NCBI GenBank assembly: GCA_031426395.1
Contig: JANPLG010000182.1
Location: 6,984-70,983, forward strand
DNA: 64,000 bases
Source: Actinomycetes bacterium
GTDB lineage: Bacteria > Armatimonadota > SYMT01
Direction of reading: 5' to 3'
Under the pieces are notes generated by a model. That model was not told the DNA's origin and ran no database searches. It was given only the letters and a program-made list of their open reading frames with translations. This document shows positions 5,029 through 61,104 of this stretch, piece by piece; positions within the stretch are counted from its first letter, which is position 1; each line of letters begins with the position of its first letter. A program made the position numbers and the translations under genes.

Positions 5029-5146
5029 CGGGTTTCCGGTTCCTTGTTTCAGGTTCCCGGTTCCCGGTTTCAGGTTTCCTGTTCCCTGTTTCCTGTTCCC
5101 GGTTTCAGGTTCCCTGTTCCCTGTTCCCGGTTTCCTGTTTCCCGTT
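5029..5146. repeat. Tandem heptamer array (KGTTYCM), about 16 units
   Basis: Direct read: ggtttcc ggttcct tgtttca ggttccc ggttccc ggtttca ... It lies about 180 bp upstream of nuoA on the minus strand. Confidence 0.8.
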
Positions 5147-5390
5147 AGGTGTGAGGCGGTGACGGTTGCGGGTTTGCAGGAGCGGTGCTTGGGGTGATGG
5201 CGGACCTAGCGGTGACTGGTTGCCAGAGTGTGGGGTGGTCGGCATTCTCGGAAAAACATACCGGGGGGGGCACCACCACCACCTCTGGGGCGAGGGAGCG
5301 ACACGGCGAAGGGGCGACGGAGTTGCCTGGGTCTCGGAGTGGTGTACGGATGTGCGGGGAGGTGCGGCCGGTCGGTTCTCGGTCAGGGTT

Positions 5391-5815
5391 CCGGGTAACG
5401 CGCTGGATTGGCGTGTTGCGCCCCAGGACGATGCCCTGGGCTACCTCATTGCGCCCCTTCAGGGCTGGGGAGGTTACCGTCCGCGTTCCCAGGGCGATGC
5501 CCTGGGCTGGGGTATTGCGCCCCGTTGGGGCTGGTGGTGTGGGACGCTGGGTGAAGCCGTAGAGCGTGGGGGCACTGGAGTGACGGGGTTGCCTGGTTCC
5601 GAAGTGGTATACGGCTGTCCAGTGGGGTGTTGCGGGACGGTTCGCGGCCGCCGGAATCCAACTGATGCGCTGGATTGGCGTGTTGCGACCCAGGGCGGTG
5701 CTCTGGGCTACCTTATTGCGCCCCTTCAGGGCTGGGGAGGTTGCCGTCCGCGTTCCCAGGGCGGTGCCCTGGGCTGGCGTATTGCGCCCCGTTGGGGCTG
5801 GTTGCCAGGGTCGGG
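5391..5815. repeat. REP-like repeat cluster: two copies of a ~145-bp unit, each with two GC-rich hairpins (CCCAGGGCGRTGCCCTGGG)
   Basis: Hairpins at 5422-5440, 5488-5506, 5697-5715 and 5756-5774. The nested sub-repeat ATTGCGCCCC(N)GGGGCTGG recurs. The cluster sits in a ~1.5-kb noncoding gap (4854-6408) that also holds G-tracts at 5263-5270 and 5908-5921. Confidence 0.7.
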
Positions 5816-6408: not shown

Positions 6409-8694
6409 TTGCCCCATCCCCCGGGCCAAGGCCGTGGTAAGCTTGAGGGTCCCTACGCGCTTGAGCTGGGGCGGTCGATTCCAGCAAGGCCCATAGCCGT
6501 GTCCCTGCCTGATTGGTACGAAAACGCGCTCGTTCTCCTCCACCTGGAGCACAACTACTCCCCTTCCGACCAGCCGTCGGCGCTGGGTGGGCTGGATATG
6601 GAGGAGATGCGCGAGGTCCTGGACCGCGTGCGTCCTGAGGTGATCGAGGTGACCGCGAAGGGCGCGGCTGGCTACGTCCCCTACCTCTCGCGCTACGGCA
6701 ACTGCCTGCCGCTGGTGGCCGACGCGGGCGCGCAGGACGTGCTGGCCCTCTGGCGGGAGCTGACCTCGCACCAGCACATCCGCTTTGTCCTGGGCTACAG
6801 CGGTCTGATCGACCACCGCGCCGCCTCGGAGCGGCCGGAGTGGCGGCGGCTCTCGATGCGGCACGACCCCTACCCCAACCGGGCGCTCTGCCCCAACAGC
6901 GGCTACGTGGATGAGCTGATGCTGCCGCAGTTGGAAGAGCTGGTTGAGTACTACCAGCCGGACGGCATCTGGCTGGATAACGACAACTGGACCGTCAGCC
7001 CCTGCCACTGCTCCGTCTGCGAGAGCGAGTACCAGATGCTGCACGGCCGGATGCCGCCGGACAACGCGCGGGACCCGTTCTGGCCGGAGTGGCTCCAGTT
7101 CCACCACGATAGCTTCGACCGCCACCTCAACCGCGTGGCCCGCTACCTGGAGAGCCGCCAGCCAGAGTTGATACTGACCTCCAACGGGACCGGGGCGCTG
7201 CATCATCCCGGCGCGGTGCCGATCAGCATCCGCCGCCTGACGCGCGATCTCTCCCCCGCCTATTCCCTCAAGCAGGCTGGCCTAGAAGCGCGGTTCCTCG
7301 ATGGCCGGGGCGTCCCGTTCGACTTGGGCACCTGGGTTACGTGCAGCGCGCGCCCTTTCCCGCAGGGTAAGACACCGGCCCTCCCCACTTATCCCAAGAC
7401 GGCCGCGCACCTGGAGCAGGAAGCAGGGGCGATCCTCGCCAGCGGGGGGCGCGTAACGCTCTGGCTGGAGCCGCGCCCGGATGATTCGCTCCCCCAGGCC
7501 GAGCTGGAGGTGGCCGAGGAAGCTGCCGCGTGGATTCGCGAGCGGGGGGAGTGGTCGACACGCACCACCAGTGCCGCCTACGTGGCCATCCTTCACAGCG
7601 AGGAGACGCACAGGAAGGCCGGCAATGGTCTCTACGATCCGGGGCCTTCGCTCGACCGTATTCGGGGCGCGCACCAGGCGCTAACGGAGCTGCGCCATCC
7701 GCACGACATCGTCAACGAGGCGGGGCTGCTGGCCCGGCTGGCGGAGTACCAACTGGTGGTGCTACCGGAGCAGGTCGCGCTCTCCCCTCGGGTGGAGGAT
7801 GCGCTGCGTGAGTGGGTCCGTTCCGGCGGCAAGCTGCTCGCTTCCGGTCGGGTGGCACCTCGACTCATCGAGGACCTGCCGACCTTCGCGCTGGAAGAGG
7901 TGCTGGGCATTCGCTGGACCGGTCGCCAGGAGCCGCAGAGCTGGACGGTGCTGAACGGCAAGCCGCTAAAGATCGGCGCGCCCTCCTACTCGGTCGCGCT
8001 CATCGGAGCGGAGATGCTGGCAGCTAATCTCGATCCGCAGCGACCCACCGCCGGCCGGGAGATGGCACTTCCCGCCGCCACGCGCTACGCCTACGGTGAG
8101 GGAGAAGGCTATTACCTCGCAAGCGACTTCTTCGCCGCCTACCACCGCCACCAATACCCCGGACTGCGCGACTTCCTCGGCATGATCCTGGAGAAAGCGC
8201 TCCCGCTGCCGCTGCTGCTCACCAATGCGCCGCCGAACATCGAGGTGACCGCGCGGCACGGCGAGGGATTCCTGGCGCTCCACTTCCTCAATCACGACCC
8301 GGGTAAGAGCCTCGGGCAGAACAGCGCGTTCATCGAGCGCGTGCCGCCGAATGAGCCGTTCACCGTCACCCTCACCATCTCGCTGCGCCCAGAGCTGGTG
8401 CGGCTGGAGCCGGGGGCACGGATTGTGGAGTGGACCTGGAACGCGGAGACGATGACGGCCTTCATCCCGCCCTTCGATGTCCACTCCGTTCTGGTGCTAA
8501 CCCTGCCGCCCGTGGTTGCCCCTGCAGAACCGACCGTCGATGCCCCTGCAGAACCGATCGTCGATGCCCCTGCAGAATCGACCGTCGAACATGTAACTGC
8601 CGACCAGGACGCTCCCGTCCCTGAGGATTCCCAGGTGCCGCTGACCGCTCTCCCAAACGAGGGGGAGGATCCGGCCGCACCTCCTCCCGCGTGA
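6409..8694 (+). CDS. Glycoside-hydrolase-like protein: GH29/GHL-type TIM-barrel N-domain plus a GATase1-like (GH42 trimerisation-like) middle domain; family uncertain, start uncertain
   Basis: YYQPDGIWLDNDNW resembles fucosidase/GHL catalytic motifs. AILHSEE...VLPEQVALS...GGKLLASG resembles the GH42 middle domain. The C-terminal linker has 3 x 24-bp tandem repeats (8521-8592, PAEPTVDA). Confidence 0.55.
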   Translation: MPHPPGQGRGKLEGPYALELGRSIPARPIAVSLPDWYENALVLLHLEHNYSPSDQPSALGGLDMEEMREVLDRVRPEVIEVTAKGAAGYVPYLSRYGNCLPLVADAGAQDVLALWRELTSHQHIRFVLGYSGLIDHRAASERPEWRRLSMRHDPYPNRALCPNSGYVDELMLPQLEELVEYYQPDGIWLDNDNWTVSPCHCSVCESEYQMLHGRMPPDNARDPFWPEWLQFHHDSFDRHLNRVARYLESRQPELILTSNGTGALHHPGAVPISIRRLTRDLSPAYSLKQAGLEARFLDGRGVPFDLGTWVTCSARPFPQGKTPALPTYPKTAAHLEQEAGAILASGGRVTLWLEPRPDDSLPQAELEVAEEAAAWIRERGEWSTRTTSAAYVAILHSEETHRKAGNGLYDPGPSLDRIRGAHQALTELRHPHDIVNEAGLLARLAEYQLVVLPEQVALSPRVEDALREWVRSGGKLLASGRVAPRLIEDLPTFALEEVLGIRWTGRQEPQSWTVLNGKPLKIGAPSYSVALIGAEMLAANLDPQRPTAGREMALPAATRYAYGEGEGYYLASDFFAAYHRHQYPGLRDFLGMILEKALPLPLLLTNAPPNIEVTARHGEGFLALHFLNHDPGKSLGQNSAFIERVPPNEPFTVTLTISLRPELVRLEPGARIVEWTWNAETMTAFIPPFDVHSVLVLTLPPVVAPAEPTVDAPAEPIVDAPAESTVEHVTADQDAPVPEDSQVPLTALPNEGEDPAAPPPA

Positions 8695-9643: not shown

Positions 9644-9720
9644 CCGGACTGGTCAGGCTGCGATGGAGAGCTTGAGAGATAGAGGGATGGAGAGACCCTG
9701 ACGTTGCCGTTCCCCACACC

Positions 9721-9769
9721 GCATTCCGCATTCCGCATTCCGCATTCCGCATTCCGCATTCCGCATTCG
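9721..9769. repeat. Tandem heptamer array (GCATTCC) x7 between convergent genes
   Basis: Seven perfect GCATTCC units, 78 nt after the fpg stop and 10 nt before the hemQ stop. A degenerate copy sits at 60969-61010. Confidence 0.85.
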
Positions 9770-15620: not shown

Positions 15621-16120
15621 CAGGCCTCCTCATCGCCGCGCATCGTGATCGGTCCGCAATTGGGCGGCAGCCAATCTATGAAGCGCTGAGCGATAGGAGG
15701 TCACAATCCACGGCCCGGTTTCTTGTCTCTTGGTTTCCACCTGGGCCAGTACGAACCCCTGATCACGCCCCCAGAACCCCGACAGGCTCGCTGGTATCCA
15801 TCCAGCCCACAGACCCCTCTGTTGCGATCGTTGCATTCTGAATTCTGCATCCTGAATTCCTAGCCCTGATCACGGATAGCACCCTGGCGGCCCGCAGTTT
15901 CCGGCGATACCGGGCGAGGGTAGACCTCGCCGGGCGGCAGGCGTAGCCCTGGGCGCGGATGGACCGTCGGATGTTCCACGGAACCTGGTGGATGGATCGG
16001 TGGCCTTACACGTATCTAAGACTAGGCAACCGTAGCACGCGCGTAGGGGGTTCCCCTGGCAACTCGCGAGGCGCGCGGAGCCAGGCAAGTCGCTTCCCTC
16101 TTTCCTGATCGAGGTCACTC

Positions 16121-17283: not shown

Positions 17284-17324
17284 CAATTTGCAATTCTCAA
17301 TTGACAATTGCAAATTGACAATTC
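17284..17324. promoter_or_regulatory. AT-rich element with CAATTG/TTGCAA palindromes and two TTGACA hexamers in the yeaH-spoVR spacer
   Basis: Direct read: caatttgcaattctcaattgacaattgcaaattgacaatt. It shares the 12-mer AATTGCAAATTG with the element upstream of asnS (26221-26266). Confidence 0.4.
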
Positions 17325-20283: not shown

Positions 20284-20420
20284 TGCCGGGGAGACGCTCC
20301 CCTCTGACAGCTAGACGGACCACGGCAGCGCAAGGTTCCAAGGCGCAGAACCCGTCGCAGAGTCGGCGCTGGTGCGTCCCGTGACGCAGCGGCACCCGCA
20401 ATTCGCAATCCGTAATCGCC

Positions 20421-22259: not shown

Positions 22260-22869
22260 GAAGCGCGTCTCCGGAGGGGCGGGCCGGACAGCGCCGCGTT
22301 TCGGGGATTCTATCCGCAGGCGGGTTGTCGGACCAAGGCTCCGCTATGTGAGCCAGAAACGCAGGTCGCAATGCTACGCGCACGGACGCGATTGCGGCAC
22401 GGGTGTGGACTAAACCGCGGAGACGCCGAGGACGCTGAAAGCGGGCATGCAAGAAGTCAGCGGAGCAGAGAGTTTCACCTCCTACGTCAACCGCTCTTCG
22501 GAGCGACCGGCCAGTTCTCCAATGGAGTTGTCTGCAGTGCTGACGGTCAGAATTCTGTCGGCCCGCGAATACATCCTGGGTCGGTTGCGCAGTGATCCGT
22601 TACCAGCCACCGTGCGACCGCAGGGCCAGCCGACAATCGGACCTCTCCAACTCTCTACAACAACTCCGTGCCTTCTCCATGTCTCCGTGTCTCCGTGGTT
22701 GCGGTCTTTCCGCTGTGCGTCCTCCGCGTCCTCGGCGGTTAATACCGGCACGGATGGACAAGTCGGCGGCCAGGAACACGTCGCTTACGGGTAGAGGGGT
22801 TGCTGTTTTGCTTGAGGTCCGATCGGGTACTACCGGCACACAGGTCTCCCCGCTGTACCGGTCCCCCTG

Positions 22870-26225: not shown

Positions 26226-26266
26226 GTTTGCAAACTGAAAATTGCAAACTGAAAATTGCAAATTGG
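26226..26266. promoter_or_regulatory. AT-rich tandem repeat (TTGCAAACTGAAAA x2 + TTGCAAATTGG) with the 10-bp palindrome GTTTGCAAAC, upstream of asnS
   Basis: Direct read. It shares AATTGCAAATTG with the spoVR upstream element. It lies 117 nt upstream of the asnS start in a GC-rich genome. Confidence 0.4.
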
Positions 26267-29051: not shown

Positions 29052-29417
29052 ATGCAGCGGCAGAGCAACGATCCCGGTAGTGTGGAGATGGCGCTGGTGG
29101 ATGGCGCGCCCCAAATCCGTCTCCGGGGCGAGTGCGACCTTGCCACGGCCCCGGCGCTCCAGCAACAGGTAGCGGGCCTGGTTCGCGAAGGGCACACTCG
29201 GCTGGTGTTCGACCTCCAGCAGGTCACCTTCATGGACAGCAGCATCCTGCGGTCGTTCCTCACCGCGCGCCGCGACCTCCAGCCCACCGGCGGCGAGGTG
29301 GTGCTGCTCTGCCGGCCGGGCTTCGTGCGGCGGCTGCTGTCGCTGCTGGAACTGGACCAGTTGGTGCGCGTCTGCACCCCGGAGGAATGGCGGAAGTCGG
29401 TCGCAGCAGTGAACTGA
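29052..29417 (+). CDS. STAS-domain protein (anti-sigma-factor antagonist, SpoIIAA-like); start 29052 or 29088
   Basis: …LVFDLQQVTFMDSSILRSFL… is the typical STAS core with the phosphorylatable Ser region. Confidence 0.7.
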   Translation: MQRQSNDPGSVEMALVDGAPQIRLRGECDLATAPALQQQVAGLVREGHTRLVFDLQQVTFMDSSILRSFLTARRDLQPTGGEVVLLCRPGFVRRLLSLLELDQLVRVCTPEEWRKSVAAVN

Positions 29418-29421
29418 CGAT

Positions 29422-29720
29422 CCATTGCGGATTTCGGATTTCGGATTTCGGATTTCGGATTTCGGATGCGGGTTGGCTGGAGGCAGGGCGTTGCTTCATC
29501 TTCGTCTTCTCCGCTCGACGGGCCGGTCGCTGGAAAACCCCGTGGACCGTCACTCTGGGCGTCCCCACCCTGCCGGCGCGCGGACTCACTGCCCTCCCAG
29601 AGTCCACCCGGATCCGTGCTCAGCGTCGAAACAGTCCCTCTGCTGCTCGGTGGCCACGGGCGACCGTGACCGGATTGGGACGCGGATTGGGACGCGGATT
29701 GGGACGCGGATTGGCTCGAG
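29422..29720. repeat. MITE-like element, subfamily A copy (5' TIR CCATTGCGG(ATTTCGG)4-5 GATGCGGGTTGGCTGG; degenerate 3' end with a (CGGATTGGGACG)x3 array at 29672-29716)
   Basis: The 5' 55 bp are near-identical to the 5' end of the 59857-60098 element. The internal region is homologous but diverged (…GGACTCACTGCCCTCCCAGAGTCCACCCGGATCCG…). Confidence 0.5.
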
Positions 29721-29940
29721 ACCCGGTGACGCTGTCGGCAATCGCTAGGTGGGTGCGGGCGGGACGCCCGCGCTCCCAGTCTCTCCATCCCTCTATCTCT
29801 CCTTCTCTCCATCGCATAATGATCGGTCCTTGGTCCGGCGGCCCCCGTGCGGGTTTGACGCGGACGCCTATCAGGTATGAGTGGCTGGCAACCGTGCGCT
29901 CCTAGAGGGACAGCTTCCACCGCCGGCACGCCGCCAGAAC

Positions 29941-32444: not shown

Positions 32445-32783
32445 CGCTCAAAACCTCTCACACCGGCGACGGGTCACTCGCCCCCAGAACCATAGCCAGC
32501 GGCCTCGCGCCGCGTTCGATCACGGTAGCAGTCTCGGTAGCCGTGCCCCCGCTTGGGGTGCGTTCACTCCGAAGTGCGGGCACCGTCACCGGGAGTCACA
32601 GAACGCCAGGGGGTTTACGGTCCACCAAGCCCCCCACCGTGATCGAACGCGGCACGAGGCCGCTGGCTATGGTTGGGGGCGGGAGGTGGTCCCCAGTCGG
32701 AGCGGTCAACCAACTCTTGTCCCCAATCCAGAATCCATACACACGGGCAAGCATTGGCACGCAATCCGAAATCCGCAATCGAC
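32445..32783. repeat. MITE-like element, subfamily B copy with a long internal hairpin (CCATAGCCAGCGGCCTCGCGCCGCGTTCGATCAC ... GTGATCGAACGCGGCACGAGGCCGCTGGCTATGG) and a heptamer 3' TIR (…GCACGCAATCCGAAATCCGCAATCG)
   Basis: Arms about 34 bp with one mismatch, roughly 150 bp apart. The 3' end is homologous to the 3' TIR of the 59857-60098 element, and the core is homologous to 46653-46983. Confidence 0.6.
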
Positions 32784-46651: not shown

Positions 46652-46652
46652 G

Positions 46653-46983
46653 CGGGATTTCGAATTTCGAGTTTCGGATTTCGAGTTGGGGACGGTGAGG
46701 CATCCGTTTTGTCGGGCGGATTCAATTCGCCATAGTCAGCAGCCTTGTGCTGCGTTCGATCACGGCGGCCGGCGTGTGACCCCACCGCACCCTCGCCCGC
46801 CATCCGCGATCCGCCTTCGCGCGACAGGTCAGGTGCAGAGACCAGCCGACTACCGTCATCGAACGCGGCACAAGGCCGCTGGCTATGGGCTGTGGCCGAT
46901 GACTGGCCGTATGACCTGATGAGCCTGCCTGGCAACACGGAGTCCGTCACCGTCCCCAACCCGAAACTCGAAATCCGCAATTG
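46653..46983. repeat. MITE-like element, subfamily B, full-length with about 35-bp heptamer-built terminal inverted repeats
   Basis: 5' GCGGGATTTCGAATTTCGAGTTTCGGATTTCGAGTTGGGGACGG. 3' reverse complement CAATTGCGGATTTCGAGTTTCGGGTTGGGGACGG. Internal long hairpin CCATAGTCAGCAGCCTTGTGCTGCGTTCGATCAC…CATCGAACGCGGCACAAGGCCGCTGGCTATGG. It sits exactly between the convergent stops of 46013-46651 and pyrD. Confidence 0.65.
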
Positions 46984-56912: not shown

Positions 56913-57212
56913 CTATTCGCTAAGCAACTCCACCCACGTCTCCGACTGGTGCAACCGGAGCGCCAGGGCTTCAAGGTCCGGCAGGGTGCGTCGCTCAAGG
57001 TCAGCCCTCACCGTGGCGTTCACCAGACCCAACCGCGGCTCTCCCATTAGCAGGATGAGCCGCCGCACCTCTTCGACGCGGCCCAGCGAGAGGCCCTCGG
57101 AGAGACCTACGGAAAGGCCTTTTGTGAGACCCTTCTCGAAGCCCACCGCTTCACCTTCCTCAAGGATGGCCTGGTAAGTGGTCGATTCCTTCATCTTACG
57201 AACCCTCTGCAA
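56913..57212 (-). pseudogene. Stand-alone duplicated copy of the 3' ~300 bp (DUF4351-like C-terminal domain) of the adjacent Rpn-family gene, with a 16-aa Gly/Leu/Ser repeat insertion
   Basis: MKESTTYQAILEEGE…RVEEVRRLILLMGEPRLG…LALRLHQSETWVELLSE matches MKESTTYRAILEEGE…RVEEVRRLILLMGEPRFG…LALRLHQSETWGELLSA of the upstream gene. Confidence 0.5.
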
Positions 57213-57242: not shown

Positions 57243-58121
57243 CTAAGCGGAGAGGAGTTCGCCCCATGTCTCCGACTGATGCAGCCGGAGCGCCAGGAGT
57301 TCGAGTTCCTCCAGGGCGCGTCGCTCCAATTCGGCCCGAACCGTGGTGCCCGCCGGTCCGAACCGCGGCTCGCCCATAAGCAGGATCAGCCTTCGCACCT
57401 CTTCGACTCTGCCCTTCTCCAGGCCCCTGACTTCACCCTCCTCAAGGATGGCTCGGTAAGTAGTCGATTCCTTCATTGCGCGGACTCCCTTTAGCAGATT
57501 CCTGGCGAACCCTCTGGGGTAACGCAGCCCTAGAAGAATATACGTGGAAACCCAGAACTCGGCCGCATCGGAGGGCGTGAGTTGGTCGTTGACGCGCACT
57601 TCCATCGCGCGTACCACGGCGGGCAGCGCGCCGGAATGAACGGCGGCAAGCGGGGCTAGGGGAAGGGTGCCGATGCCGCCCTTGAGCAAGTCGTCCACGG
57701 CGGTTTGCCATAACCTGCGCACCGAATAGCGCCAGACGATGCTGGTAGGCAGGACCGGCGGCTGTCGGGTCCACTCGCCGGTCAGATGGGGACCATCGGC
57801 TTCCTTCCGGAGCAGGAGGACGACGCTGTGCACCGGAAGATCATGCCGCTCGTCCAGGAGGACGTTGTAGCGCAGCATCCTTCGCGGCAGGCCCTCGTCC
57901 CGGGAGGCCTGCAACTCCAGGTGGAGGAGCCAGGGCTGTGGCTCCTCCAGTCGTAGCACCTTGTCCGCCGCGCCTGAGACGGTCGCGATGTCCGCGTCCA
58001 CCATCCGGACCGGACCCGATGGCCGGACCCCAAGCTGGGCGAGCCAGTCCTCGGGGTGGGCTTCAATGAGGTGCTTGAGGGTCGCGTCGAAGAGCCTGGC
58101 CATGAGGATTGCTTCCTGCAC
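57243..58121 (-). CDS. Rpn-family recombination-promoting nuclease / putative transposase (PD-(D/E)xK, YhgA-like) with a C-terminal DUF4351-like domain
   Basis: 292 aa, family-typical N-terminus (…FDATLKHLIEAHPEDWL…) and conserved acidic residues of the nuclease core. Confidence 0.65.
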   Translation of the reverse strand: MQEAILMARLFDATLKHLIEAHPEDWLAQLGVRPSGPVRMVDADIATVSGAADKVLRLEEPQPWLLHLELQASRDEGLPRRMLRYNVLLDERHDLPVHSVVLLLRKEADGPHLTGEWTRQPPVLPTSIVWRYSVRRLWQTAVDDLLKGGIGTLPLAPLAAVHSGALPAVVRAMEVRVNDQLTPSDAAEFWVSTYILLGLRYPRGFARNLLKGVRAMKESTTYRAILEEGEVRGLEKGRVEEVRRLILLMGEPRFGPAGTTVRAELERRALEELELLALRLHQSETWGELLSA

Positions 58122-58289: not shown

Positions 58290-59855
58290 TTGCGGCCGTC
58301 GATGGATACAAGCGAGAGGGCAGGCTGTACCACGCAGGGGGTGACGGAAGTGGCGCTTGACGGATTGGAGACAACCTACCGGGAACTGGAGCTGGCCCTG
58401 CGTGCGCGGGTTCCGCTGATCGCCCTCGTCACGGTGGAGGAGCAGCGGGCCGAGGAGCGGCTTCTCCAGCCGCTCGCCCGGGACTGGCGCGAGGGGCGGC
58501 TCCTCGCCTGGTCCACCACCCGTGGCTTCCAGACGCTGCCTGCGGACCCGCTCGAGGAGCCACAGCGCTTCTCAGCGCCGGACCCGCCCTCCGCGCTGGA
58601 GTTCATCGCGCAGCACGAAGAGCCGGCGCTGTTCGTCCTCAAGGACTTCCACCACTACCTGGAGAGCGCGGTCGTCCTCCGACGCCTCCGCGAGCTCTTC
58701 ATGGAGCTGCCGCATACCGGCAAGCAGATCGTCTTCCTCGGTCCCCGCTTCCGCGTGCCGGAGGATCTTGAGAAGGAGGTCCAGATCATCGACCTCCCCC
58801 TCCCGGCGCTCCCGGAGCTGGCGGCGCTCCTCGACTCCCTGGCGGATGCCGTGAAAGGCGAAGTGGCCCTCACCCCGGCGGGCCGCGAGCGGTTTCTCAA
58901 AGCCTCACTCGGCTTCACGCTCTCAGAGGCGGAGACCGTGCTGGCCAAGGCGATTGTCCGCGACGGTGCCCTCACCGACGCCGGGGTGGACCTCATCCTG
59001 GCGGAGAAGCAGCAGATCGTGCGTCGCAGCGGCTTCCTGGAGTACTACACGGCTGAGGAGACGCTGGACGATGTGGGCGGTCTCGCGGGCCTGAAGCGCT
59101 GGCTCGCCACCCGTGAGGATGCCTTCACCGAAGACGCCCGCGCCTACGGGCTGCCGGTGCCGAAGGGCGTCCTTCTGCTGGGTGTCCAGGGCGGCGGAAA
59201 GAGCCTGGTGGCGAAGGCTATCAGCCGGGCGTGGCAGATGCCGCTCCTGCGCCTCGATCTCGGCCGCGTCTTCGGCAAGTACATCGGCGAGAGCGAGGCG
59301 GCGATCCGGCGCGCCATCCGTTCCGCGGAGAGCGTCTCCCCCTCCATCCTCTGGATCGATGAGATTGAGAAAGGCTTTGCCGGCGCCACCGTCGAGGCGC
59401 ACGACACCGGCGTGAGCGCCCGCGTCCTCGGGACCTTCCTCACCTGGATGCAGGAGAAGCGGAAGCCGGTCTTCGTGATCGCCACGGCCAACCAGATTCG
59501 GAACCTCCCGCCGGAACTGCTGCGCAAGGGCCGTTTCGACGAGCTCTTCTTTGTCGACGTGCCGGATGAGCGGGAGCGCGAGGAGATCTTCGCCGTCCAC
59601 CTGCGGAAGCGCGGCCGCGTGCCGGCCAGCTTCAACCTCCGGGCGCTGGCGGCCCGCACGGACGGCTTCACCGGCGCCGAGATCGAGCAGGTGGTGAACG
59701 AAGCGCTCCACGCCGCCTACGCGGATCACCGCCGGGAGATCACCCAGGCCGACCTCGAGCAGGCAGCCGGCGAAGTAATCCCCCTCGCCGTCACGATGAA
59801 GGAGTCGGTGGCCGCCATGCGCTCGTGGGCCGCCAACCGGGCAAGACGAGCCTGA
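58290..59855 (+). CDS. AAA+ ATPase (Ycf46-like family); alternative GTG start at 58341
   Basis: Walker A GVQGGGKSL(V)AKA, Walker B ILWIDEIEK, second region of homology, Arg finger. The N-terminal …LRARVPLIALVTVEEQRAEERL… is typical of Ycf46-like proteins. Confidence 0.75.
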   Translation: MRPSMDTSERAGCTTQGVTEVALDGLETTYRELELALRARVPLIALVTVEEQRAEERLLQPLARDWREGRLLAWSTTRGFQTLPADPLEEPQRFSAPDPPSALEFIAQHEEPALFVLKDFHHYLESAVVLRRLRELFMELPHTGKQIVFLGPRFRVPEDLEKEVQIIDLPLPALPELAALLDSLADAVKGEVALTPAGRERFLKASLGFTLSEAETVLAKAIVRDGALTDAGVDLILAEKQQIVRRSGFLEYYTAEETLDDVGGLAGLKRWLATREDAFTEDARAYGLPVPKGVLLLGVQGGGKSLVAKAISRAWQMPLLRLDLGRVFGKYIGESEAAIRRAIRSAESVSPSILWIDEIEKGFAGATVEAHDTGVSARVLGTFLTWMQEKRKPVFVIATANQIRNLPPELLRKGRFDELFFVDVPDEREREEIFAVHLRKRGRVPASFNLRALAARTDGFTGAEIEQVVNEALHAAYADHRREITQADLEQAAGEVIPLAVTMKESVAAMRSWAANRARRA

Positions 59856-59856
59856 T

Positions 59857-60098
59857 CAATTGCGGATTTCGGATTTCGAGTTTCGGATTTGGATGCGGGT
59901 TGGCTGGTTGTGGGAATCCGTATCGTCTCTTCCGGTGCGTGGACTCAACGCTCGATTCGAATCCACCCGGACCCGCACTGCGGGTGGCCAGTCCGAAGAG
60001 GGACTGCTCCGTCACGCAGTCTCGCGAAAGGCGGCTCATCTGGTGAGACGGTCGTTGTCGCACGCAACTCGAAATCCGAAATCCGAAATCCGAAATTG
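59857..60098. repeat. MITE-like element, subfamily A, full-length (242 bp) with ~30-bp heptamer TIRs, between convergent stop codons
   Basis: 5' CAATTGCGGATTTCGGATTTCGAGTTTCGGATTTGG. 3' reverse complement CAATTTCGGATTTCGGATTTCGGATTTCGAGTTGCG. It starts 2 nt after the AAA-ATPase stop and ends 10 nt before the Lon-N gene stop. Confidence 0.65.
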
Positions 60099-60108
60099 TC
60101 GGTGGCCG

Positions 60109-60810
60109 TCAGTTGAGGCAGACCTGAGAGGGGTCCACCCGCAGCCGGTGGGCCTGGGTCTGCTCCTGTCCCACCTTGCGCGCTCGCTCCGTACCCGCCT
60201 TCAGCAACTCCAGTTCCCGTTCCAGCCGCTCCTGCACCGACTGCATCTCTAGTAGCGCCTGCCGCTCCGCCGGATCGCCCTGGAGCACCGCGCCTACCAG
60301 GTAGGAGAGTTGCAGCGGCTCCTCCGGAAGATCCAGCTCCTGATACTCAAGGCCGTTCGCGGAGAGAATGGCGATGATGTAATCCTCCACCCCCTTCTTC
60401 ACCTGCGCCGAGAGCGGCCCAGGCGCATCCGCTGCCTCGTCCGGCAAGAACTCCACCTCGGCCTCGGCGAACGGCTGGTCCAGGAGCAGCTTGCGGATCC
60501 GAAAGCGACGCCGGCCCACCGTGTTCAGATTCCAGCGCCCATCTCCCAGGGGCACGCTGGCGACGATCTCGCAGGTAGTGCCCACGAGGTGGGGGTCCGC
60601 CGGAGTTCCCACTTCCTGCCCGGTGGAGATGAGGCAGACGCCGAAGGTGCGGTCGCCCTCCAGGCAATGGCGGGTCATCAACTGGTAGCGCGGTTCAAAG
60701 ATGTGGAGCGGCAGCGCCATTCCCGGAAAGACCACCACGTTCAAGGGGAAGATCGGAATCCGCTGCTGTCCGGTAGCCTGTCCATCTGCCTGTTCAGTTG
60801 CCTGTTGCAT
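60109..60810 (-). CDS. Stand-alone Lon N-terminal (LON substrate-binding) domain protein; start set at MQQATEQ
   Basis: …IPIFPLNVVVFPGMALPLHIFEPRYQLM… is the Lon-N signature. The upstream 237 codons of the ORF overlap greA antisense and a heptamer repeat and are rejected. Confidence 0.65.
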   Translation of the reverse strand: MQQATEQADGQATGQQRIPIFPLNVVVFPGMALPLHIFEPRYQLMTRHCLEGDRTFGVCLISTGQEVGTPADPHLVGTTCEIVASVPLGDGRWNLNTVGRRRFRIRKLLLDQPFAEAEVEFLPDEAADAPGPLSAQVKKGVEDYIIAILSANGLEYQELDLPEEPLQLSYLVGAVLQGDPAERQALLEMQSVQERLERELELLKAGTERARKVGQEQTQAHRLRVDPSQVCLN

Positions 60811-61104
60811 GACCTGTTCCGCCCGCTCGAGCGGGATCCTTACCGCATACGGGTCGATAAAGCTGTCCCCGCTGACTCGTTGTAACCAGTGACGGGCAGC
60901 GGCGGAACGTGAGCCCCGGCAAGCCCCATCTGCGGCGCAGCGGAAAGGCACCTGGACTGCGGACAACTGCATCCGCATTCCGCATTCCGCGATCCACATT
61001 CCGAAATCGCCGACCCGGTTCGTGGTAACATGAACGGACCTCGTCCAAACCCTCTCTGCGCCGCGTCCGCGCCGCGCCCTCGTTCCCGCTATAGGAGCCC
61101 CAAG

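What the first reader, a model, noticed from the sequence alone, without database searches (positions are those of the whole stretch)
59857..60098. Second MITE-like subfamily (A) with CAATTG-(CGGATTT)n TIRs wedged between convergent genes
242 bp. 5' CAATTGCGGATTTCGGATTTCGAGTTTCGGATTTGG. 3' (reverse complement) CAATTTCGGATTTCGGATTTCGGATTTCGAGTTGCG. It begins 2 nt after the AAA-ATPase stop and ends 10 nt before the Lon-N domain gene stop. Its internal sequence is unrelated to subfamily B but related to the 29422-29720 copy. An insertion this tight after stop codons would also supply a bidirectional transcription terminator/hairpin.
Basis: seen in the sequence. Interest (0 to 1): 0.5.

Follow-up and report, generated by a model that had tools for sequence, protein, structure and literature searches.

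The report
Heptamer-armed foldback repeat between convergent genes
The 242-bp spacer between two convergent housekeeping genes is a gene-less hairpin-forming repeat whose arms are inverted runs of CGGATTT, a kind of arm found right after stop codons in many bacterial phyla and, in some genomes, around genes of the ribosomal-RNA intervening-sequence protein family.

Summary
Window 59857-60098 fills the gap between the AAA-ATPase stop (59853-59855) and the Lon-N gene stop (60109-60111). Its arms are 29 nt and 90% complementary, built from CGGATTT units. It shares its left end and a 68-nt core with 29422-29725.

"MITE" is only partly supported. I found no target-site duplication and no transposase, and the sister copy lacks the right arm. 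The arm is not family-specific: (CGGATTT)3 and the terminus AATTGCGGATTTCGGATTTCGG each gave more than 120 exact hits in unrelated genomes and metagenomes, around unrelated interiors.

In those hits:
- Arrays mostly hold 3-4 units and rarely more than 5.
- 41% of termini abut a sense-strand stop codon, against 7.6% of random positions.
- 44% have an inverted partner, usually 55 nt or less away.
- A few pairs enclose a PF05635 gene (S23p/Avd-like, the 23S rRNA intervening-sequence protein).

Best reading: a gene-less member of a cross-phylum class of heptamer-armed foldback elements that resemble rRNA intervening sequences. Its transcript would carry a stem of about 29 bp, which could protect the 3' end or be cut by RNase III. 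Mobility and function are untested. Interest is moderate, mainly for the wider pattern.

The parts
59857..60098 (.). Whole foldback element A1 (242 bp, no supported ORF)
   Evidence: It fills all but 11 nt of the 253-nt convergent spacer.
59857..59893 (+). Left arm: CAATTG CGGATTT CGGATTT CGAGTTT CGGATTT GG
   Evidence: The terminus AATTGCGGATTTCGGATTTCG matches the 22-nt metagenome pattern except for its last base.
60063..60098 (-). Right arm (read on the - strand): CAATTT CGGATTT CGGATTT CGGATTT CGAGTTG CG
59891..59907 (+). Subterminal motif GGATGCGGGTTGGCTGG, identical in A2 (29464-29480)
   Evidence: It gave no exact hit in the genome or metagenome collections.
59929..59995 (+). Core shared with A2 (about 68% identity over 68 nt)
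   Evidence: No Rfam match. A hairpin seen by eye in this core is not energetically exceptional.
59853..59855 (+). TGA stop of the AAA-ATPase gene, 1 nt before the element
60109..60111 (-). TGA stop of the Lon-N domain gene, 10 nt beyond the element
29422..29725 (+). Sister copy A2. It starts 4 nt after the stop of a STAS-domain gene (29052-29417) and has the left array and the core, but no inverted right arm.

Best explanation
A1 is a gene-less foldback repeat. A lineage-specific interior (family A, also at 29422) is bounded by inverted arrays of about 4-5 CGGATTT-type heptamers with the terminus (C)AATTGCGGATTT.

The same arms occur in many bacterial phyla in three forms:
- solitary arrays;
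- short hairpins;
- more rarely, brackets around a PF05635 gene (S23p/Avd-like four-helix-bundle protein, the protein of 23S rRNA intervening sequences) wedged into operon spacers.

A1 therefore belongs to a class of selfish or domesticated intergenic cassettes that resemble intervening sequences, rather than to a classical transposase-driven MITE family.

What is shown:
- the anatomy of the element;
- homology of the arms;
- the sister copy;
- the cross-phylum distribution of the arms;
- the enrichment next to stop codons;
- the capped array length;
- the bracketing of PF05635 genes by inverted arrays.

What is inferred:
- Either convergent mRNA that reads into the element folds the two arms into a stem of about 29 bp closing a 184-nt structured loop.
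- Such a stem would block 3' exonucleases or pause RNA polymerase.
- Like the 28-bp stem of the Coxiella rRNA intervening sequence, it could be cut by RNase III. The element would then define and insulate the 3' ends of both genes.
- How it spreads is unknown. It may use recombination or template switching at hairpins, or a protein that recognises the heptamer array.
For: Anatomy and sister copy.

Arms are not family-specific:
- (CGGATTT)3 gave at least 120 stretches in genomes of Verrucomicrobiota, Acidobacteriota, Planctomycetota, Chloroflexota, Bacteroidota and others. I calculate about 0.3 expected by chance.
- AATTGCGGATTTCGGATTTCGG gave at least 120 metagenome contigs.
- Flanks and interiors are unrelated between genomes.

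Array length: 2/3/4/5/more than 5 units = 118/125/250/45/16.

Position: 48 of 117 termini lie -2 to +15 nt after the stop of a sense ORF of 60 codons or more, against 7.6% of random positions. 36 of those 48 lie at -2 to +4. In the genome set, 22 arrays lie 3-9 nt after a sense stop and 5 on the antisense side. All six CGGATTT-type ends in the window lie within about 10 nt after a stop, in sense orientation.

Pairing: 44 of 99 termini have an inverted partner. The inner distance is 55 nt or less in 36, 139-198 nt in 4 (A1 is 184 nt) and 531-680 nt in 4.

Dispersal of whole units: two hairpins in one Acidobacteria MAG share the same interior at two loci.

Link to PF05635:
- L006 and L037 have the gene between CGGATTT/AAATCCG arrays.
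- 8 of 10 PF05635 genes have flanking inverted repeats above the 95th percentile of controls.
- 42 of the 120 best homologues carry C-terminal tails that are translated AAATCCG arrays.
- L125 has TAATTGCGGATTT fused to the upstream stop.

Precedent: the Coxiella intervening sequence has a 28-bp inverted-repeat stem, is excised by RNase III, carries an S23p ORF and has tandem heptamers whose number varies between strains (PMC4990558).
Against: - No PF05635 gene or remnant in the window or in A1, A2, B1 or B2.
- Only about 2-6% of array sites or pairs carry that gene, so the link to A1 rests on shared arms alone.
- Many of the PF05635 homologues with array-derived tails may be vertical orthologues at one V-ATPase operon site.
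- More than half of the arrays elsewhere are solitary. A2 and B2 are solitary too, so the array may act on its own and the foldback may be secondary.
- No empty site, no target duplication and no demonstrated mobility.
- No transcript data.
- No U-tract.
Confidence: 0.55

Rival explanations
1. Classical MITE: a deletion derivative of an insertion sequence, moved in trans by a DDE transposase that binds the heptamer arms.
For: Small and non-coding, with 29-nt inverted ends. A related copy lies 30 kb away. A second family (B) has the same kind of ends. A short-read contig breaks inside the array, as happens at multicopy repeats.
Against: No target-site duplication. No transposase among the 20 window ORFs scanned, and none between the two widely spaced array pairs inspected in other genomes. 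The arms are shared across phyla around unrelated interiors. A2 and B2 have one arm only. Placement is tightly tied to stop codons.
Confidence: 0.15
2. There is no mobile unit. Each gene carries its own sense-oriented heptamer array just after its stop codon, acting as a 3'-end RNA signal or a protein-binding site. The inverted repeat arises only because two such genes converge.
For: All six arrays in the window follow a stop in sense orientation. The two convergent spacers (A1, B1) have two arrays and the two tandem spacers (A2, B2) have one. Other arrays also follow stops: (AATGCGG)7 at 9719 and CGATTACGGATTGCGAATTGCGG at 20396. Sense-side enrichment is seen elsewhere.
Against: The arms share the order of variant units, and in B1 the complementarity runs on into unique sequence (36 nt). 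In other genomes, of 27 inverted pairs only 1 has stops on both sides, 14 have a stop on one side and 12 on neither. Identical hairpin units recur at different loci.
Confidence: 0.2
3. Paired binding sites on DNA for a nucleoid or global regulator protein, as proposed for the paired tandem-repeat sites of Geobacter metallireducens.
For: G. metallireducens has three classes of intergenic inverted pairs of 3-5 tandem 7-8-nt repeats with variable spacing, attributed to unidentified global regulators or IHF/HU (PMC2700814). The window also has TCTCCGTG and ATTCTGA arrays matching the class 2 and class 3 consensus sequences. Array length is capped at about 4-5 units.
Against: A position at gene 3' ends, between convergent genes, is an odd place for transcriptional control. 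The sense-strand bias after stops points to RNA or to insertion targeting. No binding protein is known.
Confidence: 0.1

Closest known systems
23S rRNA intervening sequences carrying an S23p ORF (Coxiella, Leptospira; PMC4990558)
   Same: Terminal inverted repeats forming a stem of about 28 bp. Tandem heptamers in the stem region, variable in number. Long suspected to be a selfish or mobile element. PF05635 genes in other genomes are bracketed by the same CGGATTT arms as A1.
   Different: A1 has no S23p ORF and lies between protein genes, not in an rRNA helix. RNase III cleavage is untested. The heptamer sequence differs (GACAGAT in Coxiella).
Paired tandem-repeat sites, classes 1-3, of Geobacter metallireducens (PMC2700814)
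   Same: Intergenic inverted pairs of 3-5 tandem 7-8-nt units with variable spacing and many copies per genome. Two of the Geobacter unit types also occur as arrays in this window.
   Different: The repeat unit differs. The Geobacter sites were interpreted as regulator-binding sites, and no relation to stop codons or to PF05635 was reported.
Bacterial MITEs (e.g. Correia, Nezha, Chunjie; named from my own knowledge)
   Same: Small, non-coding, with terminal inverted repeats, dispersed in intergenic DNA and able to form long RNA hairpins.
   Different: No target-site duplication, no cognate transposase, and arms made of tandem subrepeats shared across phyla.
REP/BIME elements (PMC3733652; the effect of REPs within 15 nt of a stop is from my own knowledge of Liang et al. 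2015)
   Same: Extragenic palindromic repeats at gene 3' ends and between convergent genes, often within a few nt of the stop codon. They act as mRNA 3' stabilisers.
   Different: REPs are 20-40-nt imperfect palindromes with a GTAG or CGTC tag, linked to RAYT transposases. Neither feature is present here.
Cross-phylum heptamer arrays: TAACTGA repeats (PMC4679880), cyanobacterial STRR, long simple sequence repeats
   Same: Intergenic tandem heptamers of one specific sequence shared by unrelated phyla, positioned non-randomly relative to genes, with no known mechanism.
   Different: TAACTGA arrays are mostly direct and lie just upstream of start codons. The arrays here are often inverted pairs and lie just after stop codons.

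Membership tests
MITE | Small (under about 600 bp) and non-coding | tested here: met
   242 bp. The only ORFs are spurious ones overlapping the real genes. No Pfam or PF05635 signal.
MITE | Terminal inverted repeats | tested here: met
   29 nt at 90%, or 27 nt at 93% in a shifted register.
MITE | Target-site duplication flanking the element | tested here: not met
   The flanks are ...CCTGAT | TCGGTGG..., with no direct repeat. None at comparable hairpins in SZAS-13 either.
MITE | Many dispersed copies with the same interior | tested here: inconclusive
   Two copies in 64 kb, one of them lacking the right arm. The source genome is absent from both collections.
MITE | Parent insertion sequence with the same ends and a transposase | tested here: not met
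   No transposase among the 20 window ORFs scanned; the rest of the window was not scanned. Ordinary genes lie between the two widely spaced array pairs inspected (L018, L026). A genome-wide test was not possible.
MITE | Insertion polymorphism (empty sites) | not testable with these tools
   The nearest AAA homologues are 72-74% identical and not syntenic.
IVS-like S23p cassette | Inverted termini forming a stem of about 28 bp that contains tandem heptamers | tested here: met
   compared with PMC4990558.
IVS-like S23p cassette | Encodes a PF05635 four-helix-bundle protein | tested here: not met
   A profile search of all six frames of A1, A2, B1, B2 and the whole window found nothing. ORF-less intervening sequences do exist (own knowledge).
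IVS-like S23p cassette | Excised from the transcript by RNase III | not testable with these tools
   Needs an RNase III assay or RNA end mapping.
Geobacter-type paired tandem-repeat sites | Intergenic inverted pair of 3-5 tandem 7-8-nt units with variable spacing | tested here: met
   compared with PMC2700814.
REP/BIME | 20-40-nt palindrome with a GTAG or CGTC tag, RAYT-associated | tested here: not met
   The sequence has no such unit. No Y1 transposase among the ORFs scanned.
Intrinsic terminator | Short GC-rich hairpin followed by a U-tract | tested here: not met
   No site in the spacer. Neither arm is followed by a run of T.
Known RNA family (Rfam) | Covariance-model match | tested here: not met
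   Best E-value 0.42, far below the gathering score.
Simple heptanucleotide microsatellite | Length set by replication slippage alone | tested here: not met
   Unit number peaks at 4 and is rarely above 5. The outer terminus AATTGCGG is conserved. The counts are affected by how the sites were collected.

The most novel reading that the evidence does not exclude
Inverted (CGGATTK)n arrays mark a cross-phylum family of selfish cassettes related to rRNA intervening sequences. Under this reading:
- The array of 4-5 heptamers is the binding site of a pentameric S23p/Avd-like four-helix-bundle protein.
- Cassettes insert precisely at stop codons and operon junctions.
- They are cut out of mRNAs by RNase III, as intervening sequences are cut out of 23S rRNA.
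- Gene-less copies such as A1 are the non-autonomous majority.
Probability: 0.15. Interest if true: 0.8.

Novelty: new variant of a known kind. Interest (0 to 1): 0.5.

Why it matters
On its own, A1 is one more intergenic hairpin repeat in an uncultured bacterium, probably of the Armatimonadota.

The wider pattern found while checking it is more useful. One specific heptamer array, with a conserved terminus and a capped length, recurs across phyla and is strongly placed at stop codons. It sometimes brackets the protein gene of rRNA intervening sequences.

If this holds up, it bears on three open questions:
- where intervening sequences come from and how they move;
- what the very common "four helix bundle" S23p/Avd-like genes do outside diversity-generating retroelements;
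- why particular heptamer arrays are shared by unrelated bacteria.

It also matters in practice. These arrays break short-read assemblies and cause gene callers to add repeat-derived tails to proteins.

Tried and rejected
- Exact scans for the family-A motif ATTT(N)GGATGCGGGTTGGCTGG in genomes and metagenomes found nothing. The source genome is not in those collections, so copy number could not be measured.
- Empty-site comparison failed. Homologues of the AAA gene reach only 74% identity and have different neighbours. Their loci hold no heptamer arrays.
- Rfam and tRNA searches were negative for the element. A TTCGAATCC stretch that resembles a tRNA T-loop has no matching stem and is absent from A2.
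- A hairpin in the A1/A2 core seen by eye is not supported. Both segments have z near 0, and the minimum-energy fold of A2 does not form it.
- Interiors of A and B have no significant match in any fetched locus.
- No PF05635 remnant in the elements.
- Literature searches by repeat sequence, and for PF05635 together with repeats, found no prior description in the held library. This does not prove novelty.
- The idea that the arms are merely two independent 3' arrays was weighed and kept as a rival. It was not adopted because.

Full report
**1. The observation**

- The + strand gene 58302-59855 encodes an AAA ATPase (Pfam AAA, E 5e-29, plus AAA_lid_3). It ends with TGA at 59853-59855.
- The - strand gene at about 60112-60795 encodes a LON substrate-binding-domain protein (E 3e-40). 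Its stop is at 60109-60111.
- The element 59857-60098 therefore occupies all but 11 nt of the convergent spacer.
- Its arms, 59857-59885 and 60070-60098, are 29 nt long and 90% complementary. In a register shifted by one unit they match at 27 nt and 93%.
- Both strands fold more stably than dinucleotide shuffles (z -3.9 and -4.9), with the arms closing a 184-nt interior.
- An independently assembled Logan contig (SRR20217183) carries the identical sequence and stops inside the right array.

**2. Is the arm similarity more than heptamer periodicity?**

Yes. Both arms carry the variant unit CGAGTT after two CGGATTT units. The outermost unit is the variant ATTGCGG in four of the six CGGATTT-type array ends in the window: A1 left, A2 left, B1 right and B2 right. 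In the B copy at 46652-46982, the complementarity runs 36 nt, on into non-repeat sequence.

**3. The sister copy**

A2 (29422-29725) starts 4 nt after the stop of a STAS-domain gene.
- It shares with A1 the left terminus, the array and the 17-mer GGATGCGGGTTGGCTGG (92% over 37-50 nt).
- It also shares a 68-nt interior core in the same orientation. The local score is 22, against a mean of 9.6 (sd 1.5, maximum 18) for 1,000 random window segments.
- It has no inverted right arm. It ends in (CGGATTGGGACG)3.7 in direct orientation, and it does not fold better than shuffles (z +1.7).
- A hairpin I saw by eye in the shared core is not energetically exceptional.

**4. Context in the window**

- Of 20 ORFs scanned against Pfam, all 10 flanking the A and B elements are ordinary or unassigned genes: GreA, DHODH, RecX, a metallo-beta-lactamase-fold protein, a polysaccharide flippase and others. 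None of the 20 is a transposase.
- The best named homologues of the AAA protein are from Armatimonadota, at 68-72% identity.
- All six CGGATTT-type arrays lie within about 10 nt after a stop codon and read CGGATTT in the sense of that gene.
- The two convergent spacers (A1, B1) have two arrays. The two tandem spacers (A2, B2) have one.
- Other short arrays also follow stops: (AATGCGG)7 at 9719-9768, an array at 20396-20417, a palindromic array at 17284-17317 and one at 26228-26265.
- This raised the rival idea that the inverted repeat is just two 3'-end arrays facing each other.

**5. The arms are not specific to this family or phylum**

- The family-A motif has no exact match in the genome or metagenome collections.
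- In contrast, (CGGATTT)3 occurs in at least 120 stretches from MAGs of many phyla, with GC content from 31% to 71%. I calculate about 0.3 expected by chance.
- The 22-mer terminus AATTGCGGATTTCGGATTTCGG occurs in at least 120 metagenome contigs.
- Outside the array, the flanks show no conservation. Arrays start with a partial unit (G)ATTT and often end with CGGATTG.
- Interiors are unrelated to A or B.
- Unit number peaks at 4 and rarely exceeds 5: counts for 2/3/4/5/more than 5 units are 118/125/250/45/16. The way sites were collected inflates the counts for 3 units or more, but not the upper cut-off.

**6. Position and pairing elsewhere**

- In metagenome contigs, 48 of 117 termini lie -2 to +15 nt after the stop of a sense ORF of 60 codons or more. 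The figure for random positions in the same contigs is 7.6%. Of the 48, 36 lie at -2 to +4.
- In the genome set, 22 arrays lie 3-9 nt after a sense stop and 5 lie on the antisense side.
- 44 of 99 termini have an inverted partner scoring above the null 99th percentile. Inner distances are 55 nt or less in 36, 139-198 nt in 4 (A1 is 184 nt) and 531-680 nt in 4.
- Of 27 inverted pairs in the genome set, 1 has stops on both sides, 14 have a stop on one side and 12 on neither. Pairs are therefore units in their own right, not a by-product of convergent genes.
- In the Acidobacteria MAG SZAS-13, two hairpins 2.3 kb apart share the same interior. This shows that whole units get copied.
- No target-site duplication is visible at any of these.

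**7. The link to intervening-sequence protein genes**

- The pairs with long interiors in L037 (Phycisphaerae) and L006 (Mucilaginibacter) enclose a gene of about 120 codons of Pfam PF05635, the 23S rRNA-intervening sequence protein (E 1e-13 to 1e-17).
- Eleven such ORFs occur in the 120 genome loci.
- Of the ten complete ones, eight have flanking inverted repeats above the 95th percentile of random controls and six above the 99th. Most of these repeats are tandem heptamers of various sequences.
- Of the 120 best database homologues of the L037 protein, 42 carry at least three exact 5-mers of the KSEIRNP cycle at the C-terminus, which is translated (AAATCCG)n. By eye, many others carry variants (SAIRNPQS, SKIQNPKS) or N-terminal RISDFGF/RIADCGL extensions from an upstream (CGGATTK)n array.
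- These cassettes sit in operon spacers: between V-ATPase B and D genes (L126-L128; for L037 I read the downstream gene as subunit D by eye), between what I read by eye as pyrR and pyrB (L006), and between a peptidase gene and an epimerase gene (L125). In L125 the upstream stop is fused to the terminus as TAATTGCGGATTT.
- Caveats: many of the tailed homologues may be vertical orthologues at the V-ATPase site. Only about 2-6% of array sites or pairs hold the gene. Neither the window nor its elements contain any PF05635 trace.

**8. Comparison with what is known**

- The Coxiella 23S rRNA intervening sequence is a 428-nt element with a 28-bp inverted-repeat stem. RNase III excises it. It carries an S23p ORF and tandem heptamers (GACAGAT) whose number varies between strains. 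It has long been suspected to be a mobile or selfish element (PMC4990558).
- PF05635 is homologous to Avd, the accessory protein of diversity-generating retroelements (PMC10053308).
- The Geobacter metallireducens genome paper lists three classes of intergenic inverted pairs of 3-5 tandem 7-8-nt repeats with variable spacing, read as regulator-binding sites (PMC2700814). Two of their unit types, TCTCCGTS and MTYCTGA, also occur as arrays in this window.
- TAACTGA arrays are another heptamer shared across phyla with no known mechanism (PMC4679880).
- I found no paper in the held library that prints the CGGATTT repeat in bacteria or describes heptamer-flanked PF05635 cassettes outside rRNA.

**9. 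Verdict**

- The element is real and correctly delimited.
- It is MITE-like in size and in having inverted ends, but it fails the target-duplication and transposase criteria.
- It is better described as a gene-less member of a widespread class of heptamer-armed foldback units that resemble intervening sequences.
- Its likely molecular effect is a long RNA stem at the 3' ends of both convergent transcripts, acting as a stabiliser, a pause site or an RNase III site. This is inferred, not shown.
- The placement at stop codons and the capped array length remain unexplained. They are the most interesting leads.

Noticed in passing
window 5031-5802: Four Acido-Lenti-1 RNA matches (5422, 5488, 5689, 5755; 37-43 bits) lie inside two 222-nt direct repeats (5316-5535 and 5582-5802, 85% identical). 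A 16-unit GGTTYCC heptamer array at 5031-5144 precedes them. If the organism is an Armatimonadota, this extends the known range of that motif.
   Followed up: no
window 46652-46982 and 32477-32783: Family B elements have the same kind of heptamer ends but a different interior, built around a 37-39-nt inverted repeat (CCATAGCCAGCGGCC...GTTCGATCACGG). B1 lies between convergent genes and has two arms. B2 lies between tandem genes (RecX and a metallo-beta-lactamase-fold gene) and has one arm.
   Followed up: partly
window 9659-9696 and 29779-29816: A 38-nt CU-rich motif (GTCTCTCCATCCCTCTATCTCTC...) is shared at 92% identity. In both places it lies downstream of a heptamer array in the sense of the upstream gene. 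This suggests a larger composite 3' module.
   Followed up: no
window 9719-9768; 20396-20417; 17284-17317; 26228-26265: Other short tandem arrays begin 3-16 nt after stop codons: (CCGCATT)7, a CCGCAAT-type array, a self-complementary CAATTG-type array and (TTGCAAACTGAAAA)2.5.
   Followed up: partly
window 22674-22697, 57080-57119, 15832-15859: Arrays of TCTCCGTG, of its complement inside GGCCCACGGAGA, and of ATTCTGA/ATCCTGA match the consensus units of the class 2 and class 3 paired sites reported in Geobacter metallireducens.
   Followed up: no
window 60972-61003: A TCCGCAT-type heptamer array lies in the divergent region between the Lon-N gene and greA, not after a stop. It is 90% similar to the array at 9719.
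   Followed up: no
L001 (Logan SRR20217183 contig), end at 8496: The short-read contig ends inside the right heptamer array of A1. These arrays break assemblies.
   Followed up: yes
L126-L128 3001-3492; L037 2673-3130; L006 3448-3893; L125 9915-10430: PF05635 genes bracketed by CGGATTK arrays are wedged into operon spacers: between V-ATPase B and D genes (L037 read by eye), between what look by eye like pyrR and pyrB, and between a peptidase and an epimerase gene. Gene callers add repeat-derived peptides (SEIRNPKS..., RISDFGF...) to these proteins.
   Followed up: partly
window 56933-57084 vs 57263-57414, and 57130-57194 vs 57412-57476: Direct repeats at 80-85% identity within or next to two adjacent - strand ORFs (56913-57212 and 57243-58121, neither with a Pfam hit). 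They are probably tandem paralogous coding segments.
   Followed up: no
L072 6484-6947: A deltaproteobacterial MAG has a composite array of about 200 nt mixing CGGATTT with CGGATGG units, facing an inverted array. Array units can therefore drift and interleave.
   Followed up: no
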